Shown here piece after piece: positions 1,606 through 37,700 of a stretch of 64,000 bases of DNA. The notes under the pieces are model-generated. The model saw only the letters and a list, made by a program, of their open reading frames with translations. It was not told the origin of the DNA and did not search any database. Numbering within the stretch: position 1 is the first letter of the stretch; the number at the start of each line of letters is the position of its first letter. Source of the DNA: Macrostomum lignano. Its lineage: Eukaryota. Position numbers and translations under genes: made by a program. The DNA lies in contig NIVC01001070.1 of assembly GCA_002269645.1 (NCBI GenBank), positions 58,492 to 122,491 on the forward strand, given 5' to 3'.

Positions 1606-1627
1606 CTGCCGGCCCCAATTCCCGCAG

Positions 1628-18840: not shown

Positions 18841-21398
18841 TGTTGTAACCCGGGTCGGCTTGGGTGCCCAGTCCCGAGTACAATATATATTATATGTGAT
18901 ATAACAGGCGTTGTGACGCTCTGTCTGTACTTTTATGAATACGACGAGCAGGCGTGGCGACGCTCTGCGATAATAATTCGATCCCTCTGGTGTTGTGACA
19001 CTCAGAGTTCACGCTGCGGCTCGAGGTGTGGTGACACTCTCGAGTGCTTCTATTCTCTATACCGTAGGGCGTACGCAATATATATGGTAAACGGTACCGT
19101 ACTACAGAAGCTATATGGTCTCCCGGCGTTATGACGCTCTGGCAAGAATTCGGCCTAGCAAGCTTCCCGAAAAGAAAGGACTCAAACAGCAGGCGGCTTA
19201 CCAGTGGCCAGATGACTGTTCACCGTTTATTATTCGCAGGTCTCAAGCGCAGTTTCCGACTTCTTCTTAATTCTCCAAGACTCTTCTCAATTAGGCTATT
19301 GTGTTTCTTTTATCGAAGTGGCTAATGTTGCTGTTTCTTTTATCCAAGTAGCTAATGTTGCTGTTTCTTTTATCGAAGTAGCTAATGTTGCTGTTTCTTT
19401 TATCGAAGTAGCTAATGTTGCTGTTTCTTTTATCGAAGTAGCTAATGTTGCTGTTTCTTTTATCCAAGTAGCTAATGTTGCTGTTTCTTTTATCGAAGTA
19501 GCTAATGTTGCTGTTTCTTTTATCGAAGTAGCTAATGTTGCTGTTTCTTTTATCGAAGTAGCTAATGTTGCTGTTTCTTTTATCGAAGTGGCTAATGTTG
19601 CTGTTTCTTTTATCGAAGTAGCTAATGTTGCTGTTTCTTTTATCGAAGTAGCTAATGTTGCTGTTTCTTTTATCGAAGTAGCTAATGTTGCTGTTTCTTT
19701 TATCGAAGTAGCTAATGTTGCTGTTTCTTTTATCGAAGTAGCTAATGTTGCTGTTTCTTTTATCGAAGTGGCTAATGTTGCTGTTTCTTTTATCGAAGTA
19801 GCTAATGTTGCTGTTTCTTTTATCCAAGTAGCTAATGTTGCTGTTTCTTTTATCGAAGTAGCTAATGTTGCTGTTTCTTTTATCGAAGTGGCTAATGTTG
19901 CTGTTTCTTTTATCGAAGTAGCTAATGTTGCTGTTTCTTTTATCCAAGTAGCTAATGTTGCTGTTTCTTTTATCGAAGTAGCTAATGTTGCTGTTTCTTT
20001 TATCGAAGTAGCTAATGTTGCTGTTTCTTTTATCGAAGTAGCTAATGTTGCTGTTTCTTTTATCGAAGTGGCTAATGTTGCTGTTTCTTTTATCCAAGTA
20101 GCTAATGTTGCTGTTTCTTTTATCCAAGTAGCTAATGTTGCTGTTTCTTTTATCGAAGTAGCTAATGTTGCTGTTTCTTTTATCGAAGTAGCTAATGTTG
20201 CTGTTTCTTTTATCGAAGTAGCTAATGTTGCTGTTTCTTTTATCCAAGTAGCTAATGTTGCTGTTTCTTTTATCCAAGTAGCTAATGTTGCTGTTTCTTT
20301 TTATCGAAGTGGCTAATGTTGCTGTTTCTTTTATCGAAGTAGCTAATGTTGCTGTTTCTTTTATCGAAGTAGCTAATGTTGCTGTTTCTTTTATCGAAGT
20401 GGCTAATGTTGCTGTTTCTTTTATCGAAGTAGCTAATGTTGCTGTTTCTTTTATCGAAGTAGCTAATGTTGCTGTTTCTTTTATCCAAGTAGCTAATGTT
20501 GCTGTTTCTTTTATCGAAGTAGCTAATGTTGCTGTTTCTTTTATCGAAGTGGCTAATGTTGCTGTTTCTTTTATCGAAGTAGCTAATGTTGCTGTTTCTT
20601 TTATCCAAGTAGCTAATGTTGCTGTTTCTTTTATCGAAGTAGCTAATGTTGCTGTTTCTTTTATCGAAGTAGCTAATGTTGCTGTTTCTTTTATCGAAGT
20701 AGCTAATGTTGCTGTTTCTTTTATCGAAGTGGCTAATGTTGCTGTTTCTTTTATCCAAGTAGCTAATGTTGCTGTTTCTTTTATCGAAGTAGCTAATGTT
20801 GCTGTTTCTTTTATCGAAGTAGCTAATGTTGCTGTTTCTTTTATCGAAGTAGCTAATGTTGCTGTTTCTTTTATCGAAGTAGCTAATGTTGCTGTTTCTT
20901 TTATCCAAGTAGCTAATGTTGCTGTTTCTTTTATCGAAGTAGCTAATGTTGCTGTTTCTTTTATCCAAGTAGCTAATGTTGCTGTTTCTTTTATCGAAGT
21001 AGCTAATGTTGCTGTTTCTTTTATCGAAGTAGCTAATGTTGCTGTTTCTTTTATCAAAACACCAAAACACAAAAAGCACGCAGGAGGTGGGCAAGAGCCA
21101 GAGTCGCACCATAAATAGCACCCAAACCCTGGGGCAGACGGCCCCACCGGCTAAGCTCACCAAAACAAACCACGCCGGCCAGCTAATCAAAACCCCGCCT
21201 AAGGGGGGGAGGGGCAGCACCCGCGCCAAAGCTGGCCCGGCCGCAGCCAACCAGCCCTGAGCACGGGGCAGGGGCACGGCTGGGGAGGGGCACGCGCAAA
21301 GCCCGGCCGGCGGCCAAACCCTGCCACGCCTGCCAACCCCCCCAACCAGCCCCAAAGTGCAACGCGCCCTGCCAACTGACAAGGGCGCATGCACTACA
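18841..21398 (-). repeat. Gypsy 3' LTR (2558 bp) containing an internal 30-bp array
   Basis: Minus strand starts TGTAGTG right after the PPT and ends TTACAACA. 18841-19301 matches 28975-29435, and 21056-21398 matches 40388-40730. Confidence 0.92.
19302..21055. repeat. 30-bp satellite array inside the 3' LTR, about 58 units
   Basis: Unit GATAAAAGAAACAGCAACATTAGCTACTTC (minus strand) with C/G and CTA/CCA variants. Confidence 0.97.
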
Positions 21399-21410
21399 CC
21401 CTCCCCTCCT
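21399..21410 (-). promoter_or_regulatory. Gypsy polypurine tract
   Basis: AGGAGGGGAGGG immediately before the TG of the 3' LTR. Confidence 0.88.
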
Positions 21411-21618: not shown

Positions 21619-23109
21619 TCAAAGCTGGCGCCACAGAAAACCATCGCAGGTGGCCGGCAGGACGCGCAGGTGGCCGGCAGGAAGCGCAGATGGCCGGCAG
21701 GAAGTGCAGATGGCCGGCAGGGCACGCAGGTGGCCGGGCGGGACGCGCAGGTGGCCGGCAGGACGCGCAAGTGGCCGGCAGGACACGCAGGTGGCCGGCA
21801 CGCGCAGGTGCCGGCAGGACGCGCAAGTGGCCGGCAGGACACGCAGGTGGCCGGCAGGAAGTGCAGATGGCCGGCAGGGCACGCAGGTGGCCGGCAGGAA
21901 GCGCAGATGGCCGGGCGGAAAGCGCAGGTTGCCGACGCAGAAGCCGGCAGGAAGCGCACGTGGCCGCCGCAGAAGCCGGCAGGAAGCGCAGGTGGCCGTC
22001 GCAGAAGCCGGCAGGAAGCGCAGGTGGCCGCCGCAGAAGCCGCTGAGCCATTCCCCCAGGAAGCTTGACCCCACTAGCAAGCAAATAAACCCATACAGTA
22101 CGAGCGTAACAACATACATACAAGTAAGCAGAAAATACAGTATGAATCGGAACTGGGCACCCCAGCGAACCCGAAGTCCAGGGAGACCGACGCAGCTTTT
22201 CAGGACCTCGAGCAGCCTGCCGGGCCGGCGCAAACCGAACAGCGGGATGAGCTCGTGACAGAGCTGTCGGACGAAACAATCAAAACTCTGCCTAGACCAG
22301 TAACGGCGGCCTGCTCTCTGACGCTTTACCGGAGCGATATCTCTGCGGATGAAGAACAACGCCTGCAGCAGGACCATTGACAGTGCGCTCCTCGGTTCTC
22401 GCTGCGAGTCTCGAAACAGCCGTCTCATAGCCGTGAGCACTGACACGATTCCGTCCGACTGTCCAGCCAAAATATGCTTCATCAAACGATGGCGGAGCTG
22501 ACGCGCAGCTGCCGATAACGACAGCTTTTCATCATCCCATATTGCTCCCGACGCGCGATGTGAGACAACCTCCTTGCTTTCCGGTACATCGATCTCCATA
22601 GCTTCTGACTCACTACTTCCGGAGGAGCCATCCGATGCCAGCAACTCGTCTTCTTCTTCTGTGTCGATGCTACACTCATCCGACTCCTCGCTCTCATCGT
22701 CGTCCGAGATTAGAATGTAGCCATCCGCTTCGTAATCGTTCCTCTGTCCCTGTCTCCCCTGCCTGAGACCAGCTTCCTTGCGCTGAGCTTCTTCAACTTC
22801 TCGCCTTTGCTGTACTCCCTCTTCGATGTCCGCCGGCATTCTTACACCAGTAGGAGGTATGAACGTCATTGCGAAGGTTACAGCCTCGTCATACGGGATT
22901 GATTTATCGCCCAACTGGTCGTACATCGCTCGGCGATATGGACACGATAGAATTCTACCAGCAGTCTCAATTTCTTGGAAACGGCGTCCTGCGAGTTCCT
23001 TGTCCGGGTGCTTGTCCGGGTGCCAGAAGAGCGCTAGCTGTCGATAGACTCGCCTGATCTCGGCACGTTCGGCTGTGTGTCCGACTTGGAGGACAGCGTA
23101 CAAATCCAT
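21619..23109 (-). CDS. Retrotransposon-borne J-domain (DnaJ/Hsp40-like) accessory ORF; C-terminal extent uncertain
   Basis: MDLYAVLQV...EIRRVYRQLALFWHPDKHPD...FQEI...ILS.P.RRAMYDQLG is a complete J-domain with HPD. It is intronless and lies between the integrase stop and the PPT. Confidence 0.85.
   Translation of the reverse strand: MDLYAVLQVGHTAERAEIRRVYRQLALFWHPDKHPDKELAGRRFQEIETAGRILSCPYRRAMYDQLGDKSIPYDEAVTFAMTFIPPTGVRMPADIEEGVQQRREVEEAQRKEAGLRQGRQGQRNDYEADGYILISDDDESEESDECSIDTEEEDELLASDGSSGSSESEAMEIDVPESKEVVSHRASGAIWDDEKLSLSAAARQLRHRLMKHILAGQSDGIVSVLTAMRRLFRDSQREPRSALSMVLLQALFFIRRDIAPVKRQRAGRRYWSRQSFDCFVRQLCHELIPLFGLRRPGRLLEVLKSCVGLPGLRVRWGAQFRFILYFLLTCMYVVTLVLYGFICLLVGSSFLGEWLSGFCGGHLRFLPASATATCASCRLLRRPRALPAGFCVGNLRFPPGHLRFLPATCVPCRPSALPAGHLRVLPATCASCRHLRVPATCVSCRPLARPAGHLRVPPGHLRALPAICTSCRPSALPAGHLRVLPATCDGFLWRQL
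21646..22045. repeat. GC-rich tandem repeats (about 20 bp, then about 32 bp units) in the Gypsy 3' region
   Basis: GCAGGTGGCCGGCAGGACGC-type units, followed by CGCAGAAGCCGGCAGGAAGCGCAGGTGGCCGC-type units. Confidence 0.9.
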
Positions 23110-23532
23110 CTGCAAAGCAACGTACTCAAACCTGCGACACACTGTCCCTGACTCCAGATTCTACTCCTGCTCCCCTCTTGCCAGAGCGTCATCTCCTCGG
23201 ACCGTGGCCCGCGGTACCCTGCATCGTAAAGTCCCAGCGCAAATTCGAGTTGTCACCGGATGCCATTCCGAATACCCTCCACCGATGCATAGATTTTGTA
23301 GGCAAAATTTGATTCTCGTCAAAACTTCGATGAAGATGCGATTAAAATGACTTAATGACGCATTAACGAATTTCTTGAATGACGCATTGGCGAACTGCTC
23401 GTACTCACGATGAATGATGCATTGATGAAGTACTCGTATTTATGATGAATGACGCATTCGCGAAATATTTTTCTGGCTTTTAACGATAATCGCATATGAA
23501 ACTGATGAGACTTCACGATGACGAGTAACCCA

Positions 23533-24590
23533 TTAGAATGTCACTGGCTGGCCGTAGCGATCCGGCGGCCGTCGCAACCTTCCGGACCTTCGAGGCTCAG
23601 GTGCAGCTTCCACCGGGTTATGAGTAGGCTGCGGGTCGTCAACCAACTCCATCTGCTCTTCCAGCACCTCGGCGACTTCCTCAGCGTCCTGTGGCGGCAT
23701 CAGTTGAGGCCGAGTCCAAGTCTCGCCTTCCGCATCTGCCTCCGAGTCCGTCTCGTCGACCACTTCCGGCGGTGCCGCGGTCCTAACTGGTGTTTCCAGG
23801 GCGGCCGGTCGAGCGAACTTCCGGAGGTTGTTGAAGTGGACGAACTTCGACTTTTTACGATTTGACGGGTTTTCCACTTTGAAGAGCACCTCGGATCTTC
23901 TTTCGAGCACCTTCACTGGGCCGAGCCAGCTTACGTGAAACTTTGCGGCTTCGTCTGGTTTCAGGGCGGGGCTGTAGACGAAGACATGGTCACCCTCCTG
24001 AATATCGGATCCTCGGGTTCTTTTATCGTACTGGTCCTTCTGTCGCCGCTGATAAGTGTTCAACTGCTGTCGAGCAGCGCGATGAGCTGTCTGCAATTTG
24101 TCTTCTAGCTCCTTGACGAAATTTACATGCGAATCGACAGGCTGTGGCGGCTGGTCAGTCAAGTCTATCGGTAGGCGCATCTCCGTGCCATAGACCATGT
24201 AGTGGGGAGTATAACCCGTTGCTCGATGCACGCTTGATCGGTACGCCATTAACGCAGAGCTGACGAATTCTTCCCAGTCGTTTCGTCCTGAGTCCTCTAG
24301 GCAGCACTTGAGGATGGATTTTAAACTTTTATTGAAGTTTTCTACTTGTCCATTTCCGCTCGGATGATAAGCTGTTGTTCTGGACTTGCGGATCTCGAGT
24401 ATCCTGCACATTTCGCGCATCACTTGCGATTCGAAGTTTCTTCCTTGGTCGCTGTGCAAAGTACTCGGACACCCATGCTGGCTAATCCATCGATTGAAAA
24501 GCGCCCTTGCCACCGTCCTTGCCTTCTGGTTGCGAAGCGGGTACGCGTCAGGCCACTTCGTAAACGAATCTTGGACTGTCAGGAGATAAT
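23533..24590 (-). CDS. Gypsy integrase core and C-terminus, separated from pol by a 1-nt frameshift near 24588
   Basis: Restoring one base gives GN.YLLTVQDSFTKWPDAYPL. Catalytic D, D and E are in DIVGP, SDQG and VENFN. Confidence 0.9.
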
Positions 24591-27500
24591 GTTTCCAGCC
24601 TTACTCCGCGGTAGCGGCCCGACAATGTCCATCATGACGCAATCGAATGGTGCTGCGAATGTCAACGGTTGCAGGGGTGCTCGGTTTCGCTTGCCCGGCT
24701 TTGACTTGCAGCAGGTGGCACAACCGCGAATATATTCTTCAATGGCACGAGACAATCCTGGACGCCAGTAGCGCTGAAGCACTTTAAATTTTGTCTTCGC
24801 AAAGCCCATGTGGCCACCTCCCACTCCCTCGTGTAGGGTTTTCAAGATACGATCCAATGCCTTTCGTGGCAGCACCATTTGATACTCATCGCGCCTGTCT
24901 TTGTGTCTCACAAGGAGCACGTTCTCTTGCAGCACCAGGTCGTCTTTTCGAGTCCAGACGGCTCTAGCCAGTGGACTCCAAGCTGTCTCGCTTTTATCTG
25001 GAACTGGGTTTGAGCCAAGCGCTTCCTTTACTGTTCTCAAATCGTCGTCTTGATCCTGCTCGCTTGCCAGATTGCCGGCTGAGAATCGTTCAAATTCGAC
25101 TGCATTTAGTCCTTCTGGATGCTGCGCACATGCCGGGCATGTCTCCGCTCCGAAATGTCTCCGTACTGGCTTCCTCGACATTGCGTCCGCGTTGCCATGC
25201 GATCGACCTGGTCTGTGAACGATGCGGTACTGAAATGGAGCCAACTTCTCCAACCAGCGAGCAACCTGTCCCTCGGCGTCACTGAAGTTTTTTAACCATT
25301 GCAGGCTGCTGTGGTCCGTTCGCAGACAGAACGCTTTTCCAAGCAGATAATATCTGAACTTCATGATGAAAGTCACAACCGCTAGTAGTTCTAAACGAGT
25401 CGTAGAATAGTTGCGTTCGGCTTGATTTAGTGTCTTGGACCCATAGGCGATCACTCGTTCTGCTCCATCTGGCTGGACTTGAGAAAGTACCGCTCCTATG
25501 CCCATCTTCGAACTGCCATCAGTATCGAGGATAAACTCTCCGGCATCCGGGGAGAAATCCGGATGAGCCATAACCTCTGAACTTGTCATTCGTTCCTTCA
25601 ATGTTTTGAACGCCAGCTGCTGTTCCGTTTTCCATTCAAACTTTGCGTCTTTTGTTGTCAATCGAGTTAGAGGCGCTGCTATTGCGGCGAAATCTTTAAT
25701 AAACTTTCTGTAATAGCCACACAGGCCCAAGAATGAATGCAGCTCCGTCGAGGATCGCGGTGTTGGCCAGTTCTTCACTTCTTGAACTTTCTCCTCATCG
25801 GTACTGATGCCAGCAGCCGACAGCGTGTGACCGAGAAATTTCACTTGCTTTTGCAAAAAGTGACACTTCTGGGGCTTCAGGCACAAATTTGCTTGCCGCA
25901 ACTTGCTGAATATTTCCTCCAGTCTTCTCAGGTGTTCATCCACGTCGGTTGACCAAACCAGTAGATCGTCGATGTAGACGAGACAGGTTTTCCACATCTG
26001 CTTGTCCAGAACGGCTGCCATCAACCTGGTGAATGTTGCTGGGCTGTTCACTAAGCCGAACGGCATAACCTTCCATCGAAATTGTCCGCGATGCGGCACT
26101 GCAAACGCCGTCTTGTCCTGATCCTGAGGTCTCACCCCTACTTGCCAAAACCCGCTGTGAAGGTCCATTGTCGAGAAGATCTTGGCTCCGTGTACTGCCT
26201 CCAGCGCATCATCGACCCTCGGCATCGGCACTGCATCCTTGACGGTGACCTCATTCAACTTCCGATAATCGACGCACATCCTCATTTCCCCTGATTTCTT
26301 CTTTACGCACACCAAAGGAAAGCACCATGGTGACTGTGCTTCTTCGATCTGCCCCTTTTCCAGCAACTCGTTGACTTGACGATCTACTTCTGGCTGTAAG
26401 TGGGGAGGCAGACGACGCGGTGGGATCTTGATTGGGCGCGCATTCTCGGTGTTAATTTCATGCTCCACCACGGTAGTTAACTTGCTTGAAGTCTGCTTGG
26501 TCGTGAACACATCGCTGTAACTCCGGACAAGGATTCTAAATTCTTCGTCTTCTTTCGTCGACAGTCCACAGTCGCCGTACGAGTTTGGTAGCAAGTCTGC
26601 TTCCGAAGGGCTGTTGCTGCCTTGGACCTTCGGCTCTTCCTGTGAATCGTCTCCTGACTCTACGGCTAAGAGCTTGATGGTGTTCAACGGTTCGGTGGAT
26701 TCTAGGGGGCAGAACCACCCGAGCGTACAACCTTGGCGAATTCTGACTGGCTCTTCCGTGATATTGATGAGTCGAGTCGGCAGACGGCTGCCGCTATTTG
26801 GGATCACTAAGGCCTTAGCAAGCCAGCGGCCAGCTGCCAAATCGTTCGCTCCGAGATTCTCAGTTAGACCGACACACCCTCTGTTCCGTCGTCCTTTGCT
26901 CTCCAGCCTTGCTGACAGAACTGCTTGATGACCTGGCGGTATTGTGCTGGACCTTGTCGCCAAAATTCTGCAAACGATCGGGCGCTCAGCTTGCCATCGG
27001 AACGGGATTGCAGTGTCCTGCACTGAAAAGACAGCTGTCTTGTAGTCGATGACGCAACTGTTGTCCCTGCAGAAGTCGGATCCCAATACCAGTTGGTACT
27101 TCACTCCGCTGACTACCAAGGCTGGAGTATCTATTACTTTATCAGCGATTGACAGTCGCAACAGGACTGTTCTCTCGATTTCGATCGGGCTGCCGTTTGC
27201 TAAGCTAACATAGCCTTCAGCACCGGCCAAATCTCTGACGCTCTGTTTCGGCATACTTTGGTAGGCTTCCCGTGAGATAATGGTGCAGGAAGCTCCCGAG
27301 TCCACTAGCGCGTTCACCCTCCGCCCTGCGATTGAGGCCGTAACATATATCGACGCAGGATTGATTTGAATTGACTGAGGTGCGTTGACGGTGATTGGGC
27401 GCTGCGACTGTGCAAAACCGGCTAGTTGATGGTGAGGTGCAGTACCGGACGCTGGAGGCTGATGAGGCACTGTAACGGACACTGGATGCTGATGAGACTC

Positions 27501-27848
27501 AGTACCGGACACTGTATGCTGATGAGGCGCAGTACCGGACACTGGAGGCTGATGAGGCACTGTACCGGACACTGGATGCTGATGAGACGCTGTACCGGAC
27601 ACTGGATGCTGATGAGGCGCAGTACCGGACACTGGATGCTGATGAGGCGCAGTACCGGACACTGGAGGCTGATGAGATGAAGTACCGGACACTGGATGCT
27701 GATGAGGCGCAGTACCGGACACTGGAGGCTGATGAGACGCAGTACCGGGCGTTTGATGATGATGAGATGAGATGACGACTTGTTCGGAGGCTGACGAATT
27801 GCAGGGGCTCACTTGCCTCCAGCTGGTGGGCCCCTCTTGCCTTTTCCC
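24579..27848 (-). CDS. Gypsy pol: protease, reverse transcriptase, RNase H, integrase zinc finger
   Basis: ALVDSGAS, CVDYRKLN, MPFGL, YIDD, FILDTDGS, ELLAVV, TDHSSL, GGHMG...CATC. Confidence 0.95.
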   Translation of the reverse strand, partial: GKRQEGPTSWRQVSPCNSSASEQVVISSHHHQTPGTASHQPPVSGTAPHQHPVSGTSSHQPPVSGTAPHQHPVSGTAPHQHPVSGTASHQHPVSGTVPHQPPVSGTAPHQHTVSGTESHQHPVSVTVPHQPPASGTAPHHQLAGFAQSQRPITVNAPQSIQINPASIYVTASIAGRRVNALVDSGASCTIISREAYQSMPKQSVRDLAGAEGYVSLANGSPIEIERTVLLRLSIADKVIDTPALVVSGVKYQLVLGSDFCRDNSCVIDYKTAVFSVQDTAIPFRWQAERPIVCRILATRSSTIPPGHQAVLSARLESKGRRNRGCVGLTENLGANDLAAGRWLAKALVIPNSGSRLPTRLINITEEPVRIRQGCTLGWFCPLESTEPLNTIKLLAVESGDDSQEEPKVQGSNSPSEADLLPNSYGDCGLSTKEDEEFRILVRSYSDVFTTKQTSSKLTTVVEHEINTENARPIKIPPRRLPPHLQPEVDRQVNELLEKGQIEEAQSPWCFPLVCVKKKSGEMRMCVDYRKLNEVTVKDAVPMPRVDDALEAVHGAKIFSTMDLHSGFWQVGVRPQDQDKTAFAVPHRGQFRWKVMPFGLVNSPATFTRLMAAVLDKQMWKTCLVYIDDLLVWSTDVDEHLRRLEEIFSKLRQANLCLKPQKCHFLQKQVKFLGHTLSAAGISTDEEKVQEVKNWPTPRSSTELHSFLGLCGYYRKFIKDFAAIAAPLTRLTTKDAKFEWKTEQQLAFKTLKERMTSSEVMAHPDFSPDAGEFILDTDGSSKMGIGAVLSQVQPDGAERVIAYGSKTLNQAERNYSTTRLELLAVVTFIMKFRYYLLGKAFCLRTDHSSLQWLKNFSDAEGQVARWLEKLAPFQYRIVHRPGRSHGNADAMSRKPVRRHFGAETCPACAQHPEGLNAVEFERFSAGNLASEQDQDDDLRTVKEALGSNPVPDKSETAWSPLARAVWTRKDDLVLQENVLLVRHKDRRDEYQMVLPRKALDRILKTLHEGVGGGHMGFAKTKFKVLQRYWRPGLSRAIEEYIRGCATCCKSKPGKRNRAPLQPLTFAAPFDCVMMDIVGPLPRSKAGNIIS
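27440..27750 (-). repeat. In-frame 30-bp coding repeat, about 10 units, upstream of the protease
   Basis: Encodes (HQHPVSGTAP)n-like decamers in the pol frame. Confidence 0.9.
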
Positions 27849-28729
27849 GGCTTTGGGCACTGGAATGAGAGATGGCCTATCTCCCCGCAGTTGTAGCACT
27901 TGACACCGCTACGCTGCTTCGAGCTGGACGGAGCCGCCTGCTTGGATTGTTGCTTGTCTTGAAGGCCGGGTTCGGGCGGCTCCTGCTGGCCCTGCTGCAT
28001 CTGCTCCATCCGTCGGATCTTTTCTTCCATTTCCTTTACTTTTTGACGCAGTTGCCGTAGCTCCTCGTCTTTGCCGGTGTCACCTGTCGACGTTTCGGTG
28101 GCAAAGGCATTCAGCCCAGCCCTGGGTCTGGCTTTGGACTGGGTCGAAGACGCCTTCTGGGCTGCTTCAAGTTGTCTTACTGTTCGAATGGCATCGGTGA
28201 GGTTGGCCGGCTGCTGCAGGTACAGTCTTTCTCGGACAGTGTCGGTTACTCGAACGCCTTTTAGAAATCTGTCTTTCGCCAGCTCTGTCCTGGTGTCGGC
28301 ATCCGCGGTGGGGAAGGCATTGCGCACCAACTCCAGCAGCTCGTCCCCGTAGGTCTCCACAGACTCCTTGTCTAGCTGATCTCGATTCGATAATTCAAAA
28401 CGGTAGTCCTGGGCTGTTCTGTTCATGGTGAACCGCGCCAGCAGTGCATCCGTGAATTCCCCGTACTCGATGTCGTCTGCCAAGTCCAGCTTATCAACGG
28501 CAGCGTAGGCTGTTGTGAGGTCGAGTAGGCCGATCAGGTGCGGCCGCCTGGCTTCTTCTTCTATACCGACAGCCTCGCAGTACTCGTTGAAACTCTGCAG
28601 CCATAGGCTGAAATTCATCGTTGGTATGTACTTGGGCGGCTTCGAGAGTCGTGGCGCTGCTCGGTCGGCGTTGGCTCTGAGGCGCGCAGCCAGCGCATCG
28701 ATCAGTTGGTCCATAGCTTGATCACCCAT
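27809..28729 (-). CDS. Gypsy gag
   Basis: Capsid-like PPKY...FSLWLQSF and C-terminal CCHC knuckle CYNCGEIGHLSFQC. Confidence 0.92.
   Translation of the reverse strand: MGDQAMDQLIDALAARLRANADRAAPRLSKPPKYIPTMNFSLWLQSFNEYCEAVGIEEEARRPHLIGLLDLTTAYAAVDKLDLADDIEYGEFTDALLARFTMNRTAQDYRFELSNRDQLDKESVETYGDELLELVRNAFPTADADTRTELAKDRFLKGVRVTDTVRERLYLQQPANLTDAIRTVRQLEAAQKASSTQSKARPRAGLNAFATETSTGDTGKDEELRQLRQKVKEMEEKIRRMEQMQQGQQEPPEPGLQDKQQSKQAAPSSSKQRSGVKCYNCGEIGHLSFQCPKPGKGKRGPPAGGK
27842..27848 (-). promoter_or_regulatory. Candidate -1 ribosomal frameshift site for gag-pol
   Basis: G GGA AAA heptamer in the gag frame, and pol is in the -1 frame. An AGGGGC...GCCCCT stem starts 6 nt downstream. Confidence 0.7.
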
Positions 28730-28953: not shown

Positions 28954-28971
28954 GTCCCTGTTCGGGCGCCA
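28954..28971 (-). promoter_or_regulatory. Gypsy primer-binding site (tRNA-Lys)
   Basis: TGGCGCCCGAACAGGGAC, 3 nt from the LTR end; the classic tRNA-Lys PBS. Confidence 0.92.
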
Positions 28972-28974
28972 ATT

Positions 28975-29435
28975 TGTTGTAACCCGGGTCGGCTTGGGTG
29001 CCCAGTCCCGAGTACAATATATATTATATGTGATATAACAGGCGTTGTGACGCTCTGTCTGTACTTTTATGAATACGACGAGCAGGCGTGGCGACGCTCT
29101 GCGATAATAATTCGATCCCTCTGGTGTTGTGACACTCAGAGTTCACGCTGCGGCTCGAGGTGTGGTGACACTCTCGAGTGCTTCTATTCTCTATACCGTA
29201 GGGCGTACGCAATATATATGGTAAACGGTACCGTACTACAGAAGCTATATGGTCTCCCGGCGTTATGACGCTCTGGCAAGAATTCGGCCTAGCAAGCTTC
29301 CCGAAAAGAAAGGACTCAAACAGCAGGCGGCTTACCAGTGGCCAGATGACTGTTCACCGTTTATTATTCGCAGGTCTCAAGCGCAGTTTCCGACTTCTTC
29401 TTAATTCTCCAAGACTCTTCTCAATTAGGCTATTG
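28975..29435 (-). repeat. Gypsy 5' LTR, PBS-proximal part (copy 1)
   Basis: Matches 18841-19301 with no difference seen by eye. Confidence 0.92.
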
Positions 29436-29700
29436 TGTTTCTTTTATCGAAGTGGCTAATGTTGCTGTTTCTTTTATCCAAGTAGCTAATGTTGCTGTTT
29501 CTTTTATCGAAGTGGCTAATGTTGCTGTTTCTTTTATCGAAGTAGCTAATGTTGCTGTTTCTTTTATCGAAGTGGCTAATGTTGCTGTTTCTTTTATCGA
29601 AGTAGCTAATGTTGCTGTTTCTTTTATCGAAGTGGCTAATGTTGCTGTTTCTTTTATCGAAGTAGCTAATGTTGCTGTTTCTTTTATCGAAGTAGCTAAT
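29436..29700. repeat. 30-bp satellite, 9 units
   Basis: Same unit, lying between the Gypsy LTR part and the BEL LTR. Confidence 0.96.
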
Positions 29701-29993
29701 TGTTTGGGAGGTAGATTGAAGCATTGATTTTCTTTCCAATTCCACTGCGTGATTTAATGTACGTACGTGTTTATTATTCAATTTTCTATGTACGCTGATT
29801 TAGCCCAGGCCCATCTCACCCACCCCCCTCCACGCTGGCTGATTCTGACTGACTGCAATATATATATCATCGAGAGGGCTTATTAGCCCTGTGTACGGTT
29901 TTACGCTTTTCGTTTTGTTAGCGTCTCGCTTGAGCCTCAGCTCCAAAATAGTTATTGGCGGACCATCGGTCTTTTCATTTCTATAGTACATTT

Positions 29994-30011
29994 TGGTAGC
30001 AGAGCGTGGTT
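29994..30011 (+). promoter_or_regulatory. BEL primer-binding site, initiator tRNA-Met-like
   Basis: TGGTAGCAGAGCGTGGTT, 3 nt after the LTR. TGGTAGCAGAG is complementary to the animal tRNA-iMet 3' end. Confidence 0.75.
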
Positions 30012-30076
30012 GGACAAGCCTAAATTACCACTGACGTGGCAAGCAATAGAATCCTACTGTGAAACGAAGGACCAAG

Positions 30077-33000
30077 ATGGACAGTGACGACGCCAATGAA
30101 CAACAACAGGAAGCCCAAGACGATGCCGGCGCGCTGCGTTTAGAGAAGCTGCGCTTCGAGAAATCCCGAAAAAAAGCAGCGTTCACTCGTTGCAAAAACA
30201 AGTTGTCTTGGCTGCTAAAGACGCGCGCCTCTGATGACGAAGTGCAAGCTACCTGCGATGCTCTATCCGACCTGCAAGACCTGGTCAGCGCCATCCAGGA
30301 AGAACTGCATCAAGGCTACGCCGACGCCAAGGACAACGAGAGGCGACAACGCCTACTAGAAGAGATGGAGGAGACTGAGCGCGACTACCAAGCTGCCATT
30401 CAGCGCGTCGAAAGTTCTAGAAACCGGGGATTGCAGCGCGCCCAAGAAGCCCCTCCTGCCGCGAGTTCAAGCGGTGAGAACGCTGCGGGTGACCAAGAAG
30501 AAGCAGCTGGTGAGTTAGACAAACTTTCTGGCAGTGCTGCGTCCAGCAAAGGATCCAACCCGAAGGAGCTTTCAAAGGATTTGTGGAAGATACTGAAGCG
30601 TGTTGAAATCCCAACGTTTAGTGGAGAAAAGCAGAAGTATGAAAACTGGAAGGCAGCCTTTGTTGCGTGCATCGACAGCGCCCCTGCAACACCAGAATTC
30701 AAGTTGCTGCAGCTTAGGCAGTACCTCGGCGGTGAAGCTTTGAAGGTTATAGAACATCTAGGACACTCCGCTGCTGCATATGAGGCTGCAAAAGAGAGAC
30801 TAGAGAGAGAATTTGGTGGACAGCGTAGGCAACTTGCTCTGCACTTGGAAGAGCTGGACAGCTTCCCGATCGTGCGAAATGGAAACGCCAAGGATCTGAA
30901 AAGCTTTGCTAATCTACTGGATGTGGCTGTCGTCAACCTTGAGGAGGCGGGAAAAGAGGCAGAGCTTCAAGATGGGATGTTGTATGTGAGGCTGCAGAAA
31001 AAGTTGCCTGAGCAGATGGTTGCCAGCTACCGGAGGTGGATCTTTGAGCAGCGGAAGCCGGAGAGTGTTAGAAATCTGAGAATTTGGGTGCTGCAAGAAG
31101 CAGAGTTTCAGACTGAAGCGTCAGAGATTGTGCAGGGCGTTGCCACCATGCAGCAGGAGCGTCAAAAGCGAGAGCAGCGACCAAAGACTTTCGTTACTAC
31201 GGACAGTGACAAGAAGGTACAGCGAAAGATTTGCATTGTTTGTCAAGGTGATCACGAGCTGTGGTCCTGCAGTGAGTTCAAGGAGCTTCCGGTGGAAAAA
31301 CGCTGGGACGCGGCGCAGAGCTCGAAGTGTTGTTTCCGGTGCTTGGGCCAAGGACATCTTGGTAGCCAATGTCGGCGTGGTCGTCGGTGCGGCATCAGCA
31401 GCTGCACAAAGTTCCATCATCGCCTGCTTCATGCAGAAAAAGTGTTGGCCAAGTCTGGTGAAGCGAAGCAGACTGCATCCAAGGACGCTAAATCCGCTTC
31501 CAGTTCAGGAAAGACTGGACCGGTGACGCTTCTGTCGGCTGGTGAAACGGCAATCTCGCTACGAACGGTACCTGTAGTCCTACGGAACGGGTCCCGGAAG
31601 CTGAAGGTGAATGCCTTGCTCGACGATGCCAGTACCAGGAGCTACGTCAACATCGGGATAGCAGAAGCGCTTGGAGTGCATGGAGCGCTCGAAAAGGTGA
31701 AAGTCGGAGTCATCAATGGCCAAACAGAGACCTTCATGACAGCCCCAGTCTGCTTTAGCTTGGAAAGTCTGGATGGTCAGACCAGCTCAATGATCGTCGC
31801 CTTCACCGCTGATCACGTGACCGGGTCCCTCAAAGGCGTCGACTGGCACGAAGAAGCGCAGCAGTGGCCTCATCTGAGAAATGTACCGTTTCCGAAGCTG
31901 TGTGAGCCTGCAGTAGTGGACTTGCTGATTGGTGCTGATCACCCGGATCTTCACGTGTCCCTCAAGGAAATCGTCGGACAGCCGCTGGAGCCAAAGGCGC
32001 GCCTGACTCCCCTGGGTTGGACGTGCATCGGTCGCACAGAGCAGGACAATTCTGAGATGCAGAACGCCCATTTTGCTGCCACTTTCTTCAGCTGCGATTC
32101 CGAATCTGGTCAGGTGGCTAAGATCCTGCGGCAGTTTTGGGAGATCGAGAACGTCTCAGAAGGTGCCAATCGAAGTCCGCTGACCGCCGATGAGGAGAGA
32201 GCCGTCCAGCAAGCCAAGTCGTCGCTAAAGTACACGAAGGGCCGTTACCAGATCGGGATTCCATGGAAAAAGGATCGGCTGGCTCCAGCAGGCACTTTCT
32301 CAATGGCCTTGAAGCGACTAAAGAACACCGAACAGCGGCTGATTAAGGATATGAACGTCTGCAAGCAGTATCAGGAGATCCTTGAAAAGTATGAACAGCA
32401 AGGGTATATCCGAAAAGTGTCGCAAGCTGAGACTGAAGGCCGCTGTTTCCTGCCGCACTTCCCAGTGCTGCGGCCAGACAAGGCTACAACAAAATTGCGG
32501 ATAGTCTTTGATGCATCGGCTGCCAGATTGAACGACCAGATCCTCCAGGGCCCCAAACTGCAGAGGGATTTGGTTGACGTGCTGCTTCGGTTCCGCCGAC
32601 ACCCGATTGCGATCGCATGCGACGTAGCGGAAATGTATCTCCAGATCGAGATGGACCCGAAGGATAGGCCGCTGCACAGTTTCCTTTGGCGGGACGCCGA
32701 TCCTTCAAAGCAACCGGATGTCTACGAGTTCAACAGAGTGGTGTTCGGCGTCACCAGCTCTCCTTTCTTGGCACAGTTCGTTACCCGCTGCCATGCTGAA
32801 AAGTTAAAAGGTGAGCTTCCAGAGGCGGCCGAGACAGTACTGCACTCTACCTATATGGATGATAGCCTGGACTCTGCGCCCACCGAGGCAGCCGCCTGCA
32901 GGCTGTACGATCAACTCAGTGAGCTCTGGAGGCGCGCCGGCATGCACGCGCGCAAGTGGGTCTCGAACTCGAGAGCTGTGCTCGATAGAATCCCACCTGA

Positions 33001-33742
33001 AGACCGTGCAGCCGAAGTTACCTTGGACAGCAAAGAACTACCATGCACCAAGACACTGGGTGTCACGTGGCAGAGTGAGCAGGACGAATTTACCTTTAAA
33101 GATGAAAACGTCTTGGATACCCAGAAGCTTCAACAGCGAACGGCTTCTCAGCAGTTGCGATGGCATTTCAACCCGCCCGCTGCGCCGCACTTCGGTGGGG
33201 TGCACGAAATCATGATCAAAGCAGCGAAGAAGGCAATCTGGGCAATTCTGAAGGAGGCGGACGTCACGGATGAGGAGCTGCTAAGCGCGTTTGCTGGAGC
33301 GGAGGCACTTCTGAATTCAAGGCCGTTGACGTACCAGACGGCGCATCCGAGTGATGATGTGCCGCTGACGCCGAATCACTTCCTCATCGGGCAAGTCGGC
33401 GGGAAGTTTGCACCGGAGGTCGACGCTGCCATCGCCCGCAGTCCTTCAAGAAGATGGCGTCACGTTCAGCAGCTGGTGTCGCAGATCTGGCGCCGGTGGT
33501 TGCGCGAGTGGCTGCCGGGACTCGCACCGCGGAGCAAGTGGCGCCGCGAGCTGCCTGACCTACAACCTGGAGACGTGGCGCTGCTGGTGAGCCCCGACTC
33601 GCCTCGGGGTCACTGGCCGCTGGCTCGCGTGCTGGAGGTCATGCGCGGTCCTGACGGTCACGTGAGAGTCGCCCCAATCAGAGTCGGTGATCGCACAATG
33701 ACGAGACCAATAACAAAGTTGTGTCCAATATCTGCAGGTTAG
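30077..33742 (+). CDS. BEL gag-pol polyprotein lacking RNase H and the integrase N-terminus
   Basis: Three Cys/His knuckles (CIVCQGDH, CFRCLGQGH, C..C.KFHHRLLH), LLDDAS, RIVFDAS, YMDD, WHFNPPAAPHFGG, PLTPNHFL. Confidence 0.92.
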   Translation: MDSDDANEQQQEAQDDAGALRLEKLRFEKSRKKAAFTRCKNKLSWLLKTRASDDEVQATCDALSDLQDLVSAIQEELHQGYADAKDNERRQRLLEEMEETERDYQAAIQRVESSRNRGLQRAQEAPPAASSSGENAAGDQEEAAGELDKLSGSAASSKGSNPKELSKDLWKILKRVEIPTFSGEKQKYENWKAAFVACIDSAPATPEFKLLQLRQYLGGEALKVIEHLGHSAAAYEAAKERLEREFGGQRRQLALHLEELDSFPIVRNGNAKDLKSFANLLDVAVVNLEEAGKEAELQDGMLYVRLQKKLPEQMVASYRRWIFEQRKPESVRNLRIWVLQEAEFQTEASEIVQGVATMQQERQKREQRPKTFVTTDSDKKVQRKICIVCQGDHELWSCSEFKELPVEKRWDAAQSSKCCFRCLGQGHLGSQCRRGRRCGISSCTKFHHRLLHAEKVLAKSGEAKQTASKDAKSASSSGKTGPVTLLSAGETAISLRTVPVVLRNGSRKLKVNALLDDASTRSYVNIGIAEALGVHGALEKVKVGVINGQTETFMTAPVCFSLESLDGQTSSMIVAFTADHVTGSLKGVDWHEEAQQWPHLRNVPFPKLCEPAVVDLLIGADHPDLHVSLKEIVGQPLEPKARLTPLGWTCIGRTEQDNSEMQNAHFAATFFSCDSESGQVAKILRQFWEIENVSEGANRSPLTADEERAVQQAKSSLKYTKGRYQIGIPWKKDRLAPAGTFSMALKRLKNTEQRLIKDMNVCKQYQEILEKYEQQGYIRKVSQAETEGRCFLPHFPVLRPDKATTKLRIVFDASAARLNDQILQGPKLQRDLVDVLLRFRRHPIAIACDVAEMYLQIEMDPKDRPLHSFLWRDADPSKQPDVYEFNRVVFGVTSSPFLAQFVTRCHAEKLKGELPEAAETVLHSTYMDDSLDSAPTEAAACRLYDQLSELWRRAGMHARKWVSNSRAVLDRIPPEDRAAEVTLDSKELPCTKTLGVTWQSEQDEFTFKDENVLDTQKLQQRTASQQLRWHFNPPAAPHFGGVHEIMIKAAKKAIWAILKEADVTDEELLSAFAGAEALLNSRPLTYQTAHPSDDVPLTPNHFLIGQVGGKFAPEVDAAIARSPSRRWRHVQQLVSQIWRRWLREWLPGLAPRSKWRRELPDLQPGDVALLVSPDSPRGHWPLARVLEVMRGPDGHVRVAPIRVGDRTMTRPITKLCPISAG

Positions 33743-34757
33743 TTTGCGAACCTTTGCTAGAGAATTAGACTTTGTCAGGTTTTGCAATTTTTCTGATGAG
33801 TTGTTCAATTTTCCTGTTTGTTGCATTGTTCGTAAAGTCTTCTTTCCCTTTCATGCTAATAGGAATCACCCTGTTTTTGCCGTCTTAACCCAATTTTCGT
33901 TTTCAGTGTTCAACGCGATTAACATTCATTATTTAGCTATTTATTTTCTTGCGTGAATTTTGCTGAACAGCAGTCGTTACGGTTTAGTGAATTTGTCGGC
34001 AAGTTTGTCTTTTGCGTTTTTTGAGTTTTTTACGAGCGATGTTTGCATTATTTGAGCTCTACTTAATATTGCTTGATTTTCTGCGCTTAGAAGTACCATA
34101 GTTTATGCGCCAGTTCCGACCTTTTGATAGCCCAATGCTTACAATTGTTGTTTCAGTTTTTGTTTCAGTTGCGTTTGGTGGCGGAAGTCTGCGTTCGTGT
34201 TCAATTTTGAAATTTTATATGATAGCTGACGTACTTCTGCAAAATTTTCGATTGTCATCTACGATCTGCGTACTTATCTTCACCTTTTGCTCTATTTTTC
34301 TACCATTCACAATGTCGCCATCAATGTTTCATGCAACGTTGTTTTTTTGCTTTTTGAGTTCGATTTTGTATCACGCATCGTTTTCGAATATTTTCCTAAT
34401 ACCGTATTCGTTTTCATTGTTTCATCCCTCGAATAGTTTTTGTCATTGTCATGCCAAGGTGGGGGTATGTTTGGGAGGTAGATTGAAGCATTGATTTTCT
34501 TTCCAATTCCACTGCGTGATTTAATGTACGTACGTGTTTATTATTCAATTTTCTATGTACGCTGATTTAGCCCAGGCCCATCTCACCCACCCCCCTCCAC
34601 GCTGGCTGATTCTGACTGACTGCAATATATATATCATCGAGAGGGCTTATTAGCCCTGTGTACGGTTTTACGCTTTTCGTTTTGTTAGCGTCTCGCTTGA
34701 GCCTCAGCTCCAAAATAGTTATTGGCGGACCATCGGTCTCTTCATTTCTATAGTACA

Positions 34758-37700
34758 CTAATGTTGCTGTTTCTTTTATCGAAGTAGCTAATGTTGCTGT
34801 TTCTTTTATCGAAGTAGCTAATGTTGCTGTTTCTTTTATCGAAGTAGCTAATGTTGCTGTTTCTTTTATCCAAGTAGCTAATGTTGCTGTTTCTTTTATC
34901 GAAGTAGCTAATGTTGCTGTTTCTTTTATCCAAGTAGCTAATGTTGCTGTTTCTTTTATCGAAGTGGCTAATGTTGCTGTTTCTTTTATCGAAGTAGCTA
35001 ATGTTGCTGTTTCTTTTATCCAAGTAGCTAATGTTGCTGTTTCTTTTATCGAATTGGCTAATGTTGCTGTTTCTTTTATCGAAGTAGCTAATGTTGCTGT
35101 TTCTTTTATCCAAGTAGCTAATGTTGCTGTTTCTTTTATCGAAGTAGCTAATGTTGCTGTTTCTTTTATCCAAGTAGCTAATGTTGCTGTTTCTTTTATC
35201 GAAGTAGCTAATGTTGCTGTTTCTTTTATCGAAGTAGCTAATGTTGCTGTTTCTTTTATCGAAGTAGCTAATGTTGCTGTTTCTTTTATCGAAGTAGCTA
35301 ATGTTGCTGTTTCTTTTATCGAAGTAGCTAATGTTGCTGTTTCTTTTATCGAAGTGGCTAATGTTGCTGTTTCTTTTATCGAAGTAGCTAATGTTGCTGT
35401 TTCTTTTATCGAAGTAGCTAATGTTGCTGTTTCTTTTATCGAAGTAGCTAATGTTGCTGTTTCTTTTATCGAAGTAGCTAATGTTGCTGTTTCTTTTATC
35501 GAAGTAGCTAATGTTGCTGTTTCTTTTATCGAAGTAGCTAATGTTGCTGTTTCTTTTATCCAAGTAGCTAATGTTGCTGTTTCTTTTATCGAAGTAGCTA
35601 ATGTTGCTGTTTCTTTTATCGAAGTAGCTAATGTTGCTGTTTCTTTTATCGAAGTAGCTAATGTTGCTGTTTCTTTTATCGAAGTAGCTAATGTTGCTGT
35701 TTCTTTTATCGAAGTAGCTAATGTTGCTGTTTCTTTTATCGAAGTAGCTAATGTTGCTGTTTCTTTTATCCAAGTAGCTAATGTTGCTGTTTCTTTTATC
35801 GAAGTAGCTAATGTTGCTGTTTCTTTTATCGAAGTAGCTAATGTTGCTGTTTCTTTTATCGAAGTAGCTAATGTTGCTGTTTCTTTTATCGAAGTAGCTA
35901 ATGTTGCTGTTTCTTTTATCGAAGTAGCTAATGTTGCTGTTTCTTTTATCGAAGTAGCTAATGTTGCTGTTTCTTTTATCGAAGTAGCTAATGTTGCTGT
36001 TTCTTTTATCGAAGTAGCTAATGTTGCTGTTTCTTTTATCGAAGTAGCTAATGTTGCTGTTTCTTTTATCCAAGTAGCTAATGTTGCTGTTTCTTTTATC
36101 GAAGTAGCTAATGTTGCTGTTTCTTTTATCGAAGTAGCTAATGTTGCTGTTTCTTTTATCGAAGTAGCTAATGTTGCTGTTTCTTTTATCGAAGTAGCTA
36201 ATGTTGCTGTTTCTTTTATCGAAGTAGCTAATGTTGCTGTTTCTTTTATCGAAGTAGCTAATGTTGCTGTTTCTTTTATCGAAGTAGCTAATGTTGCTGT
36301 TTCTTTTATCGAAGTAGCTAATGTTGCTGTTTCTTTTATCGAAGTAGCTAATGTTGCTGTTTCTTTTATCGAAGTAGCTAATGTTGCTGTTTCTTTTATC
36401 GAAGTAGCTAATGTTGCTGTTTCTTTTATCCAAGTAGCTAATGTTGCTGTTTCTTTTATTTTAAGTAGCTAAGCTGTAATCGAAGTAGCTGTTTGCTGTT
36501 TATTATCGAAGTAGCTAATGTTGCTGTTTCTTTTATCGAAGTAGCTAATGTTGCTGTTTCTTTTATCGAAGTAGCTAATGTTGCTGTTTCTTTTATCGAA
36601 AGTAGCTAATGTTGCTGTTTCTTTTATCGAAGTAGCTAATGTTGCTGTTTCTTTTATCGAAGTAGCTAATGTTGCTGTTTCTTTTATCGAAGTAGCTAAT
36701 GTTGCTGTTTCTTTTATCGAAGTAGCTAATGTTGCTGTTTCTTTTATCGAAGTAGCTAATGTTGCTGTTTCTTTTATCGAAGTAGCTAATGTTGCTGTTT
36801 CTTTTATCGAAGTAGCTAATGTTGCTGTTTCTTTTATCGAAGTAGCTAATGTTGCTGTTTCTTTTATCGAAGTAGCTAATGTTGCTGTTTCTTTTATCGA
36901 AGTAGCTAATGTTGCTGTTTCTTTTATCGAAGTAGCTAATGTTGCTGTTTCTTTTATCGAAGTAGCTAATGTTGCTGTTTCTTTTATCGAAGTAGCTAAT
37001 GTTGCTGTTTCTTTTATCGAAGTAGCTAATGTTGCTGTTTCTTTTATCGAAGTAGCTAATGTTGCTGTTTCTTTTATCGAAGTAGCTAATGTTGCTGTTT
37101 CTTTTATCGAAGTAGCTAATGTTGCTGTTTCTTTTATCGAAGTAGCTAATGTTGCTGTTTCTTTTATCGAAGTAGCTAATGTTGCTGTTTCTTTTATCGA
37201 AGTAGCTAATGTTGCTGTTTCTTTTATCGAAGTAGCTAATGTTGCTGTTTCTTTTATCGAAGTAGCTAATGTTGCTGTTTCTTTTATCGAAGTAGCTAAT
37301 GTTGCTGTTTCTTTTATCGAAGTAGCTAATGTTGCTGTTTCTTTTATCGAAGTAGCTAATGTTGCTGTTTCTTTTATCGAAGTAGCTAATGTTGCTGTTT
37401 CTTTTATCGAAGTAGCTAATGTTGCTGTTTCTTTTATCCAAGTAGCTAATGTTGCTGTTTCTTTTATCGAAGTAGCTAATGTTGCTGTTTCTTTTATCGA
37501 AGTAGCTAATGTTGCTGTTTCTTTTATCGAAGTAGCTAATGTTGCTGTTTCTTTTATCGAAGTAGCTAATGTTGCTGTTTCTTTTATCCAAGTAGCTAAT
37601 GTTGCTGTTTCTTTTATCGAAGTAGCTAATGTTGCTGTTTCTTTTATCGAAGTAGCTAATGTTGCTGTTTCTTTTATCGAAGTAGCTAATGTTGCTGTTT

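What the first reader, a model, noticed from the sequence alone, without database searches (positions are those of the whole stretch)
21619..23109. Gypsy retrotransposon carrying a J-domain (Hsp70 co-chaperone) gene in the env position
Seen: an intronless, co-oriented ORF between the integrase stop (23533) and the PPT/3' LTR (21410), beginning with a complete J-domain with an intact HPD. Established: J-domains stimulate Hsp70 through HPD; polyomavirus T antigens and pestivirus-captured Jiv sequences use J-domain proteins; this slot holds env in errantiviruses. Inference: a captured and retained co-chaperone that recruits host Hsp70 for particle assembly, uncoating or anti-silencing. I do not know of a described Gypsy lineage with this cargo.
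Basis: partly seen in the sequence, partly recalled or inferred. Interest (0 to 1): 0.92.

Follow-up and report, generated by a model that had tools for sequence, protein, structure and literature searches.

The report
Flatworm retrotransposons carrying an Hsp70 co-chaperone
A whole branch of jumping genes in a marine flatworm keeps a third gene, under purifying selection, for a protein built like a partner of the cell's Hsp70 chaperone, possibly to turn that chaperone against the cell's own silencing of transposons.

Summary
The ORF sits between integrase and PPT of a Ty3/Gypsy element of Macrostomum lignano (organism from named homologs). The conserved protein is 315 aa (23109-22162): J-domain with HPD, acidic linker, and a basic five-helix domain with no Pfam or fold match. 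The window copy's 496 aa is a minority read-through. The genome holds 24 near-identical full-length matches. The same gene follows the integrase in at least six divergent families that form one RT clade: 95 of 112 integrase hits at 48% identity or more, 0 of 33 below. dN/dS is 0.10-0.25 between subfamilies, and relatives occur in unnamed public assemblies. The cargo is modular. One family adds an HP1-like chromodomain. Others add a degenerate TatD barrel, and one of these has lost HPD. A splice-acceptor motif precedes the start codon, but no junction was seen. It is not env-like. Best reading (0.4, inferred): a nuclear accessory factor that tethers Hsp70 to chromatin or nucleic acid to counter silencing. 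Particle remodelling is the main rival. My literature searches found no described LTR element with J-domain cargo.

The parts
22162..23109 (-). ORF3, conserved 315-aa coding region: J-domain (aa 2-64) with HPD, helical extension to about aa 115, acidic disordered linker (about 117-190), basic five-helix C-terminal domain (about 192-306)
22918..23106 (-). J-domain with intact HPD
   Evidence: Pfam PF00226 E 1.2e-17; fold match Z 11.6
21619..22161 (-). read-through tail of this copy (aa 316-496); minority state, runs into 3' tandem repeats, not conserved
23110..23115 (-). splice-acceptor-like motif (YTNCAG) directly before the ATG; putative cis- or SL-trans-splice acceptor
   Evidence: motif named in PMC8629364 (passages); use not shown
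23110..23532 (-). 423-nt spacer between integrase stop and ORF3; holds the switch point between 92% (pol) and 69% (ORF3) identity to subfamily A2
23533..27908 (-). pol (PR-RT-RH-IN); broken in this copy by a frameshift near 24590
27809..28729 (-). gag with one CCHC knuckle
28954..28971 (-). primer-binding site (tRNA-Lys type; the tRNA label is recalled)
21399..21410 (-). polypurine tract
18841..21398 (-). 3' LTR (TG...CA): 340-bp unique 5' part, 58 x 30-nt array, 461-bp unique 3' part
28975..40207 (-). 5' LTR remnant: unique 3' part 28975-29435, 30-nt array interrupted by a BEL/Pao element (29701-34757), cut at the inversion junction 40207/40208

Best explanation
ORF3 is an element-encoded accessory protein of one Gypsy clade: a class C J-domain protein made from its own mRNA, cut out at the acceptor before the ATG by cis- or spliced-leader trans-splicing (inferred). 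SHOWN: clade-wide retention, purifying selection, J fold with HPD, acidic linker, strongly basic helical C-terminal domain, no membrane anchor, and optional HP1-like chromodomain or TatD-like modules. INFERRED: the basic domain, helped in some families by the chromodomain or pseudo-TatD, docks the protein on chromatin or element nucleic acid in the nucleus. The J-domain then makes host Hsp70 hydrolyse ATP there and loosen repressive protein complexes, so the element is transcribed or its cDNA or provirus escapes silencing. That the gene is a selected, clade-wide cargo is about 0.95 likely. The confidence given is for the nuclear anti-silencing mechanism.
For: Retention: 24 full-length matches at 98-100%. 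17 of 20 loci fetched around divergent hits have a co-oriented integrase directly upstream. 95 of 112 integrase hits at 48% identity or more have the ORF or its T1-type homolog downstream, against 0 of 33 below 48% (with one spacer-only match removed). The carriers form one RT clade, SH-aLRT 98. Selection: dN/dS 0.10 for the J-domain (A vs A2, Fisher p 8e-13), 0.25 for the C-terminal domain, 0.25 for B1 vs B2, 0.16 for E vs E2. HPD is present in A, A2, B, E, G, H and in 5 of 5 outside homologs that have an N-terminus. Chromatin or nucleic-acid pointers: C-terminal domain net charge +7 to +17, pI 9.6-11.9, in 9 of 9 proteins, with basic clusters in 6 of 11. Family G and P0011 carry a chromodomain (Pfam E 1e-12; best PDB matches Swi6 and HP1). 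The T families carry a TatD-like domain. Precedent: Arabidopsis DNAJ1/2 are essential for SUVH1/3 anti-silencing, and tethered DNAJ1 raises reporter expression (PMC6711733, one passage read).
Against: No localisation, binding or activity data exist. The window's own family has neither chromodomain nor TatD. The third aromatic-cage position of the chromodomain is V or L (alignment; cage positions recalled), so H3K9me binding is doubtful. T1 keeps the ORF without HPD. A basic domain fits packaged RNA as well as chromatin. In the plant precedent DNAJ1 did not reactivate the stably silenced FWA locus. No spliced or SL junction appeared in the contigs of 4 runs, 3 of which bridge integrase and ORF3.
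Confidence: 0.4

Rival explanations
1. Particle chaperone (auxilin-like). The basic domain binds packaged RNA, cDNA or Gag, and the J-domain brings Hsp70 to assemble, mature or uncoat the virus-like particle, or to remodel the pre-integration complex. The chromodomain of family G would then guide integration.
For: Env-slot position and acceptor motif. A basic domain suits nucleic acid. Chromodomains guide integration in chromoviruses, and auxilin/Hsc70 uncoats clathrin (both recalled; the auxilin papers were seen only as search listings).
Against: Most Gypsy elements, including the 33 more distant integrase hits here, show no such ORF. ORF3 was exchanged between subfamilies whose pol stayed 92% identical, which is unexpected for a partner tuned to its own capsid.
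Confidence: 0.25
2. Decoy or scaffold. The C-terminal domain is the working part and binds a host defence factor or nucleic acid. The J-domain diverts Hsp70 from small-RNA (PIWI/Argonaute) loading or serves as a dispensable scaffold, so HPD can be lost when another module is gained.
For: T1 retains the full architecture without HPD (hhalign probability 96.9, E 1e-10 over ORF3 positions 2-296), with a 571-codon open frame in 9 of its best loci. Module swapping and fast divergence (25-35% identity between families) look like an arms race. The role of Hsp70/Hsp90 in Argonaute loading is recalled.
Against: HPD is invariant in six families and five outside homologs, and the J-domain is under stronger constraint (0.10) than the C-terminal domain (0.25) in A vs A2.
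Confidence: 0.2
3. Stress-circuit tuning. The protein modulates the HSF1-Hsp70 feedback loop or general proteostasis, so that the element is expressed or tolerated under heat stress.
For: Other M. lignano LTR families are strongly heat-induced through HSEs (PMC12801592, parts 1-2 of 6 read).
Against: There is no canonical HSE in this element's LTRs. The two hits near family E lie in flanking DNA outside the LTR. The HSE-bearing Gmr1/Osvaldo family Mlig-id38 has a different LTR of about 337 bp.
Confidence: 0.08
4. Neutral passenger (a transduced host gene or separate insertion), or an env-like membrane protein.
For: Within young family A, variants look neutral: 5 nonsynonymous and 2 synonymous sites in 17 copies. 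Two decayed orphan copies give dN/dS 0.44 and 2.1, neither significant. The read-through tail has a hydrophobic stretch (KD19 2.4).
Against: Same slot in families whose pol is only 46-57% identical; dN/dS 0.10-0.25; ORF inside LTR pairs with 4-bp TSDs in 9 of 11 loci. The conserved proteins peak at KD19 0.9-1.6, and the hydrophobic tail is a minority read-through.
Confidence: 0.04

Closest known systems
Non-env ORF3 cargo of bdelloid rotifer LTR retrotransposons (GDSL esterase, DEDDy exonuclease; PMC5408684, passages read)
   Same: Family-specific third ORF after pol; the paper says ORF3s are typically expressed from spliced messages; modular gain and loss.
   Different: Cargo here is a J-domain protein with an unassigned helical domain. 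The paper has 0 mentions of DnaJ or chaperone.
Errantivirus env / plant sense aORFs (PMC7264820, part 1 of 3 read)
   Same: Position between pol and 3' LTR, sense orientation, acceptor before the ORF. The review mentions a proposed chaperone role for plant env-like proteins.
   Different: No transmembrane-strength segment in the conserved protein; it is a recognisable Hsp70 co-chaperone domain.
Viral J-domains: polyomavirus T antigens, pestivirus Jiv insertions (recalled, not tested)
   Same: A genetic parasite encodes a J-domain to use host Hsp70 at a chosen target.
   Different: Not an LTR retrotransposon. No sequence or fold link beyond the J-domain; the C-terminal model has no viral fold match at E <= 0.001.
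Arabidopsis DNAJ1/2-SUVH1/3 anti-silencing complex (PMC6711733, passage) and SILENZIO (abstract starts in a search listing)
   Same: J-proteins tethered to silent chromatin by a reader domain change transcription. Family G puts J-domain and chromodomain in one chain.
   Different: Host genes of plants; a functional analogy only, no homology shown outside the J-domain.
DnaJ + DnaJ-X proteins (PF14308)
   Same: N-terminal J-domain with a helical C-terminal domain; Atlas look-alike score 0.75-0.77.
   Different: The score is below the tool's noise level; no PF14308 match in 11 C-terminal domains or in the genome.

Membership tests
Ty3/Gypsy LTR retrotransposon | gag then PR-RT-RH-IN order | tested here: met
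   Pfam
Ty3/Gypsy LTR retrotransposon | LTRs TG...CA, PBS, PPT, TSD | tested here: met
   4-bp TSDs in 9 of 11 B/E/G loci. The window copy's 5' LTR is cut by an inversion.
Osvaldo/Gmr1 clade of Gypsy | RT groups with named Osvaldo/Gmr1 references | tested here: inconclusive
   The RT tree held no named references. The Lys-type PBS and long LTR fit is recalled.
J-domain protein (Hsp40) | four-helix J fold with HPD between helices II and III | tested here: met
J-domain protein (Hsp40) | stimulates Hsp70 ATPase | not testable with these tools
   needs a biochemical assay
Class A/B DNAJ | G/F region, zinc finger and/or beta-sandwich client domain | tested here: not met
   Pfam finds only DnaJ; the rest is an acidic linker and a helical domain, so class C
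Errantivirus env | ORF after pol in sense orientation | tested here: met
Errantivirus env | transmembrane anchor / signal peptide | tested here: not met
   max KD19 0.94-1.56 in 9 of 9 conserved proteins (hydropathy only)
Errantivirus env | expressed from a spliced subgenomic RNA | tested here: inconclusive
   acceptor motif enriched; no joint in contigs, and the likely donor region was outside the stretch laid
DnaJ-X proteins (PF14308) | PF14308 match in the C-terminal domain | tested here: not met
   0 of 11 members at E <= 10; 0 matches in the genome
HP1-type chromodomain (family G only) | chromodomain sequence | tested here: met
   Pfam E 1.4e-12; Swi6/HP1 best in PDB
HP1-type chromodomain (family G only) | complete three-residue aromatic cage | tested here: not met
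   third position V or L (cage positions recalled)
TatD nuclease (T families only) | TatD barrel sequence | tested here: inconclusive
   Pfam E 7.6e-8 for L043 and 0.0027 for L056, below cut-off; 10 element-linked hits just over cut-off. Metal ligands look mostly lost (positions recalled).

The most novel reading that the evidence does not exclude
An animal LTR-retrotransposon clade encodes its own modular anti-silencing chaperone adaptor. A J-domain is aimed at chromatin or nucleic acid by exchangeable reader modules (a new basic helical domain, an HP1-like chromodomain, a pseudo-TatD) and makes host Hsp70 dismantle repressive complexes. It is released from the genomic RNA by the host's spliced-leader trans-splicing, so the element behaves as an operon.
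Probability: 0.25. Interest if true: 0.92.

Novelty: new variant of a known kind. Interest (0 to 1): 0.76.

Why it matters
Extra ORFs in the env slot of Gypsy elements are known, but few have an assignable biochemistry. A J-domain gives a precise, testable one (HPD-dependent Hsp70 activation), and the clade supplies natural variants with and without HPD, chromodomain or TatD. If the anti-silencing reading holds, this is an animal retrotransposon-encoded counter-defence that works through the chaperone system, in a worm where transgenesis is established (PMC12801592). If it is a particle factor, it shows how LTR elements use Hsp70 for assembly or uncoating. The C-terminal domain is an unassigned family, and these ORFs inflate the species' apparent DNAJ gene count.

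Tried and rejected
Expression: no RNA holder listed (19 of 24 runs hold the stretch, none on record as RNA). Contigs of 4 runs laid on 22050-27400 gave no joints or loose ends; contigs drop rare forms and the 5' leader was not in the stretch, so splicing is neither shown nor excluded.

Context of the outside homologs: metagenome scans with P0010 and P0009 found nothing. That pol P0023 and J-protein P0010 lie on one contig is inferred only from the same source and the same 7,008-nt contig length.

Donor gene: the J-domain tree (27 rows) needs 3 changes; one origin is not rejected (p-AU 0.275) but not shown.

C-terminal fold: best Z 8.5 over 80 residues (cobalamin-binding cap), within the range of common helical bundles. 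No viral match, no natural PDB sequence match, and the Atlas gave a weak DnaJ-X lead and then nothing. Four of the 11 deep-search hits (P0012-P0015) are long repetitive helical proteins and were rejected. The single-sequence search found only 4 J-domain-level hits.

Heat-shock link: no HSE in this LTR. The two DnaJ-only transcripts of similar score in the heat-stress table could not be tied to ORF3.

Dropped rows: one dN/dS control (RT, A vs A2) was out of frame and discarded; between-family dN/dS values are saturated, and two are not significant. One 'J' co-location (C33) was only a spacer match and was removed.

No integrase DNA was held for families H and T or for the carriers' ORF-less relatives, so losses were not placed on a tree.

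Literature: six searches touched the question and none listed an LTR element with J-domain or TatD cargo. Term counts for DnaJ were 0 in the main texts of PMC12801592, PMC5408684, PMC8775202, PMC10468722 and bioRxiv 10.1101/2023.10.26.564294. Subscription papers, Repbase and GyDB entries, the authors' earlier M. lignano classification paper and bioRxiv supplements were not searchable and could hold a mention. The scan's own notes held nothing on this.

Full report
OBSERVATION. The minus strand carries gag (28729-27809), pol (27908-23533, frameshifted near 24590 in this copy), a 423-nt spacer, and an open frame from ATG 23109 to 21619. PPT 21410-21399 and a 2.56-kb 3' LTR follow. Pfam gives zf-CCHC, protease, RT, RNase H and integrase in Gypsy order, and DnaJ at aa 2-64 of the third ORF (E 1.2e-17). 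The genome has 764 Mb in 5,269 contigs. Named homologs are Macrostomum lignano gene models.

TRUE LENGTH. A DNA search gave 36 matches, 24 of them full-length at 98-100%, the window included. The assembly is redundant (PMC12801592), so these are not all separate insertions. I held 20 of the 24. HPD is intact in 20 of 20, and 17 of 20 are open to codon 315. At codon 316, 12 of 20 stop and 8 read through; the read-through forms give 496, 504 or 566 aa in three copies, 344 aa in four, and one is already broken. The main contig of 4 of 4 runs has the stop-bearing form. Subfamily A2 and the unnamed Logan protein P0016 (50% identical) end at the same place. The gene is therefore 315 aa.

A CLADE-WIDE CARGO. 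Protein searches of the genome found intronless homologs at 25-35% identity. Of 20 ten-kb loci fetched around them, 17 have a co-oriented integrase just upstream, with pol 46-57% identical to the window's outside A2. Three are decayed orphans. In 9 of 11 B/E/G loci the ORF lies inside an LTR pair with a 4-bp TSD; six of these nine LTR pairs are over 99% identical, so the families are young. I joined the 145 integrase places (only 145 of 4,283 candidates were scored) with the ORF hits. An ORF3 homolog lies downstream of 27 of 30 hits at 89% identity or more, 23 of 23 at 55-59%, 45 of 59 at 48-54% and 0 of 33 below 48% (one spacer-only match removed). Misses may be truncations, losses or unscored candidates. 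An RT-RNase H tree (41 rows: 34 of the 120 listed homologs plus 7 from held DNA; quick method, no named references) puts A, A2, B, E, G, H, T1 and two JGI pols on one branch, SH-aLRT 98. T1 and H were assigned through annotated models.

SELECTION AND EXCHANGE. Pairwise Nei-Gojobori on natural open stretches gives dN/dS 0.10 (J-domain, A vs A2, p 8e-13), 0.25 (C-terminal domain), 0.25 (B1 vs B2, p 3e-6), 0.17-0.25 (B vs D) and 0.16 (E vs E2). Against: two decayed orphans give 0.44 and 2.1 (not significant), deep pairs are saturated, and variants inside young family A look neutral. A and A2 are 92% identical through pol but 69% in ORF3, with dS 0.17 versus about 1.0-1.2. I infer that the ORF3 module was exchanged by recombination in the spacer.

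ANATOMY. The model (mean pLDDT 68; J-domain about 90) shows a J-domain, two more helices, a disordered acidic linker (117-196) and a helical C-terminal domain. A homolog's C-terminal domain folded alone gives five helices, pLDDT 89, pTM 0.82, with no convincing fold match. It is strongly basic in 9 of 9 proteins, and none has a transmembrane-strength segment. A profile search of 1.84 billion representatives found 11 hits. Seven are ORF3 relatives: one M. lignano model, four Logan and two JGI proteins whose hosts are unknown. Four are repetitive noise. Family G and its outside relative P0011 (76% identical) insert an HP1/Swi6-like chromodomain with an incomplete cage. Family H has J-domain with HPD plus a divergent C-terminal domain (weak match, hhalign probability 24). 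Family T1 (21 co-located loci, including three of a related family whose J state I did not see) has an HPD-less J-like domain, the same C-terminal domain and a degenerate TatD barrel, then a PPT. The C150 family keeps only the TatD C-terminal half. The host donor of the J-domain is unresolved.

EXPRESSION ROUTE. YAG abuts the ATG in 4 of 7 lineages (background 3.6% of 2,944 ATGs), and YTNCAG lies within 22 nt in 5 of 7 (background 3.6%). The lineages share ancestry, so the binomial p values overstate the case. YTNCAG is the top motif at M. lignano SL trans-splice sites, and 30% of its genes are trans-spliced (PMC8629364, passages); it is also an ordinary cis acceptor. No junction was seen in the run contigs. 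Family G's ORF exists as a separate 328-aa NCBI model.

MECHANISM. Established knowledge (recalled): J-domains trigger Hsp70 ATP hydrolysis through HPD at sites chosen by their other domains. The question is therefore what the other domains bind. A basic helical domain, an acidic tract, an HP1-type chromodomain and a pseudo-nuclease barrel all point to chromatin or nucleic acid, not membranes. I rank nuclear counter-silencing first (0.4; plant precedent in PMC6711733, passage), particle or pre-integration-complex remodelling second (0.25), decoy or scaffold third (0.2; raised by the HPD-less T1), stress tuning 0.08 and passenger or env 0.04. None was tested directly.

COMPARISON AND NOVELTY. 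It is a Ty3/Gypsy member with a class C J-protein as ORF3; it is not an env and not a DnaJ-X protein; the Osvaldo label is untested. Non-env ORF3 cargo is a known kind (PMC5408684, passages; PMC7264820, first third). Six searches listed no LTR element with J-domain or TatD cargo. The M. lignano LTR paper has no DnaJ mention in its main text. In its supplements the term occurs only as annotation of host-transcript clusters; I saw the file list, term searches and part 1 of 8 of file 5. UniRef names these models 'J domain-containing protein' without a transposon link. Verdict: real, selected, apparently undescribed variant of a known kind; mechanism open; interest 0.76.

Noticed in passing
window 40208-64000 vs 28002-40207: The contig ends in an inverted duplicate of the same insertion. 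The 4-nt flank beyond the 3' LTR (18840-18837) equals the flank before the LTR start at 40388, and the contig ends at the window end. This is likely a fold-back or assembly artefact, or a real inverted duplication.
   Followed up: partly
window 29701-34757, 50540-55597, 57253-62306: Three 99.9% identical BEL/Pao elements (290-bp LTRs, internally shortened pol) sit inside the Gypsy LTR's own 30-nt array, so the array acts as a landing site.
   Followed up: partly
window 19302-21055, 34758-40207, 40755-50539: The family-A LTR holds a 30-nt tandem array of very variable length (58 to over 300 units); family E LTRs hold a 53-nt array.
   Followed up: no
L042:720-2001, L056:1-492, L043:1024-1566: TatD-like pseudo-nuclease cargo in sister Gypsy families. 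One search found no paper holding TatD, retrotransposon and Gypsy together. It deserves its own study.
   Followed up: partly
L026, L030, L035, L037, L039 and window 18004-18839: Many elements of this clade sit in or beside host minisatellites; preference versus chance was not tested.
   Followed up: no
L035, L036, L037 (5' leader): Family G has a different primer-binding site from A, B and E although it is in the same RT clade.
   Followed up: no
P0026 (NCBI model BOX15_Mlig034239g2), P0005, P0018: Public gene models fuse pol or integrase pieces to ORF3; they are probably annotation artefacts or deleted copies.
   Followed up: no
window 17245-17691 (+), 1097-1933 (+), 8915-10063 (-): By eye only, labels recalled: a fibrinogen-like C-terminal domain exon, an exon of a DEAD-box helicase (UAP56-like), and a SAP-domain ORF resembling a DIRS/Ngaro-type gag.
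   Followed up: no
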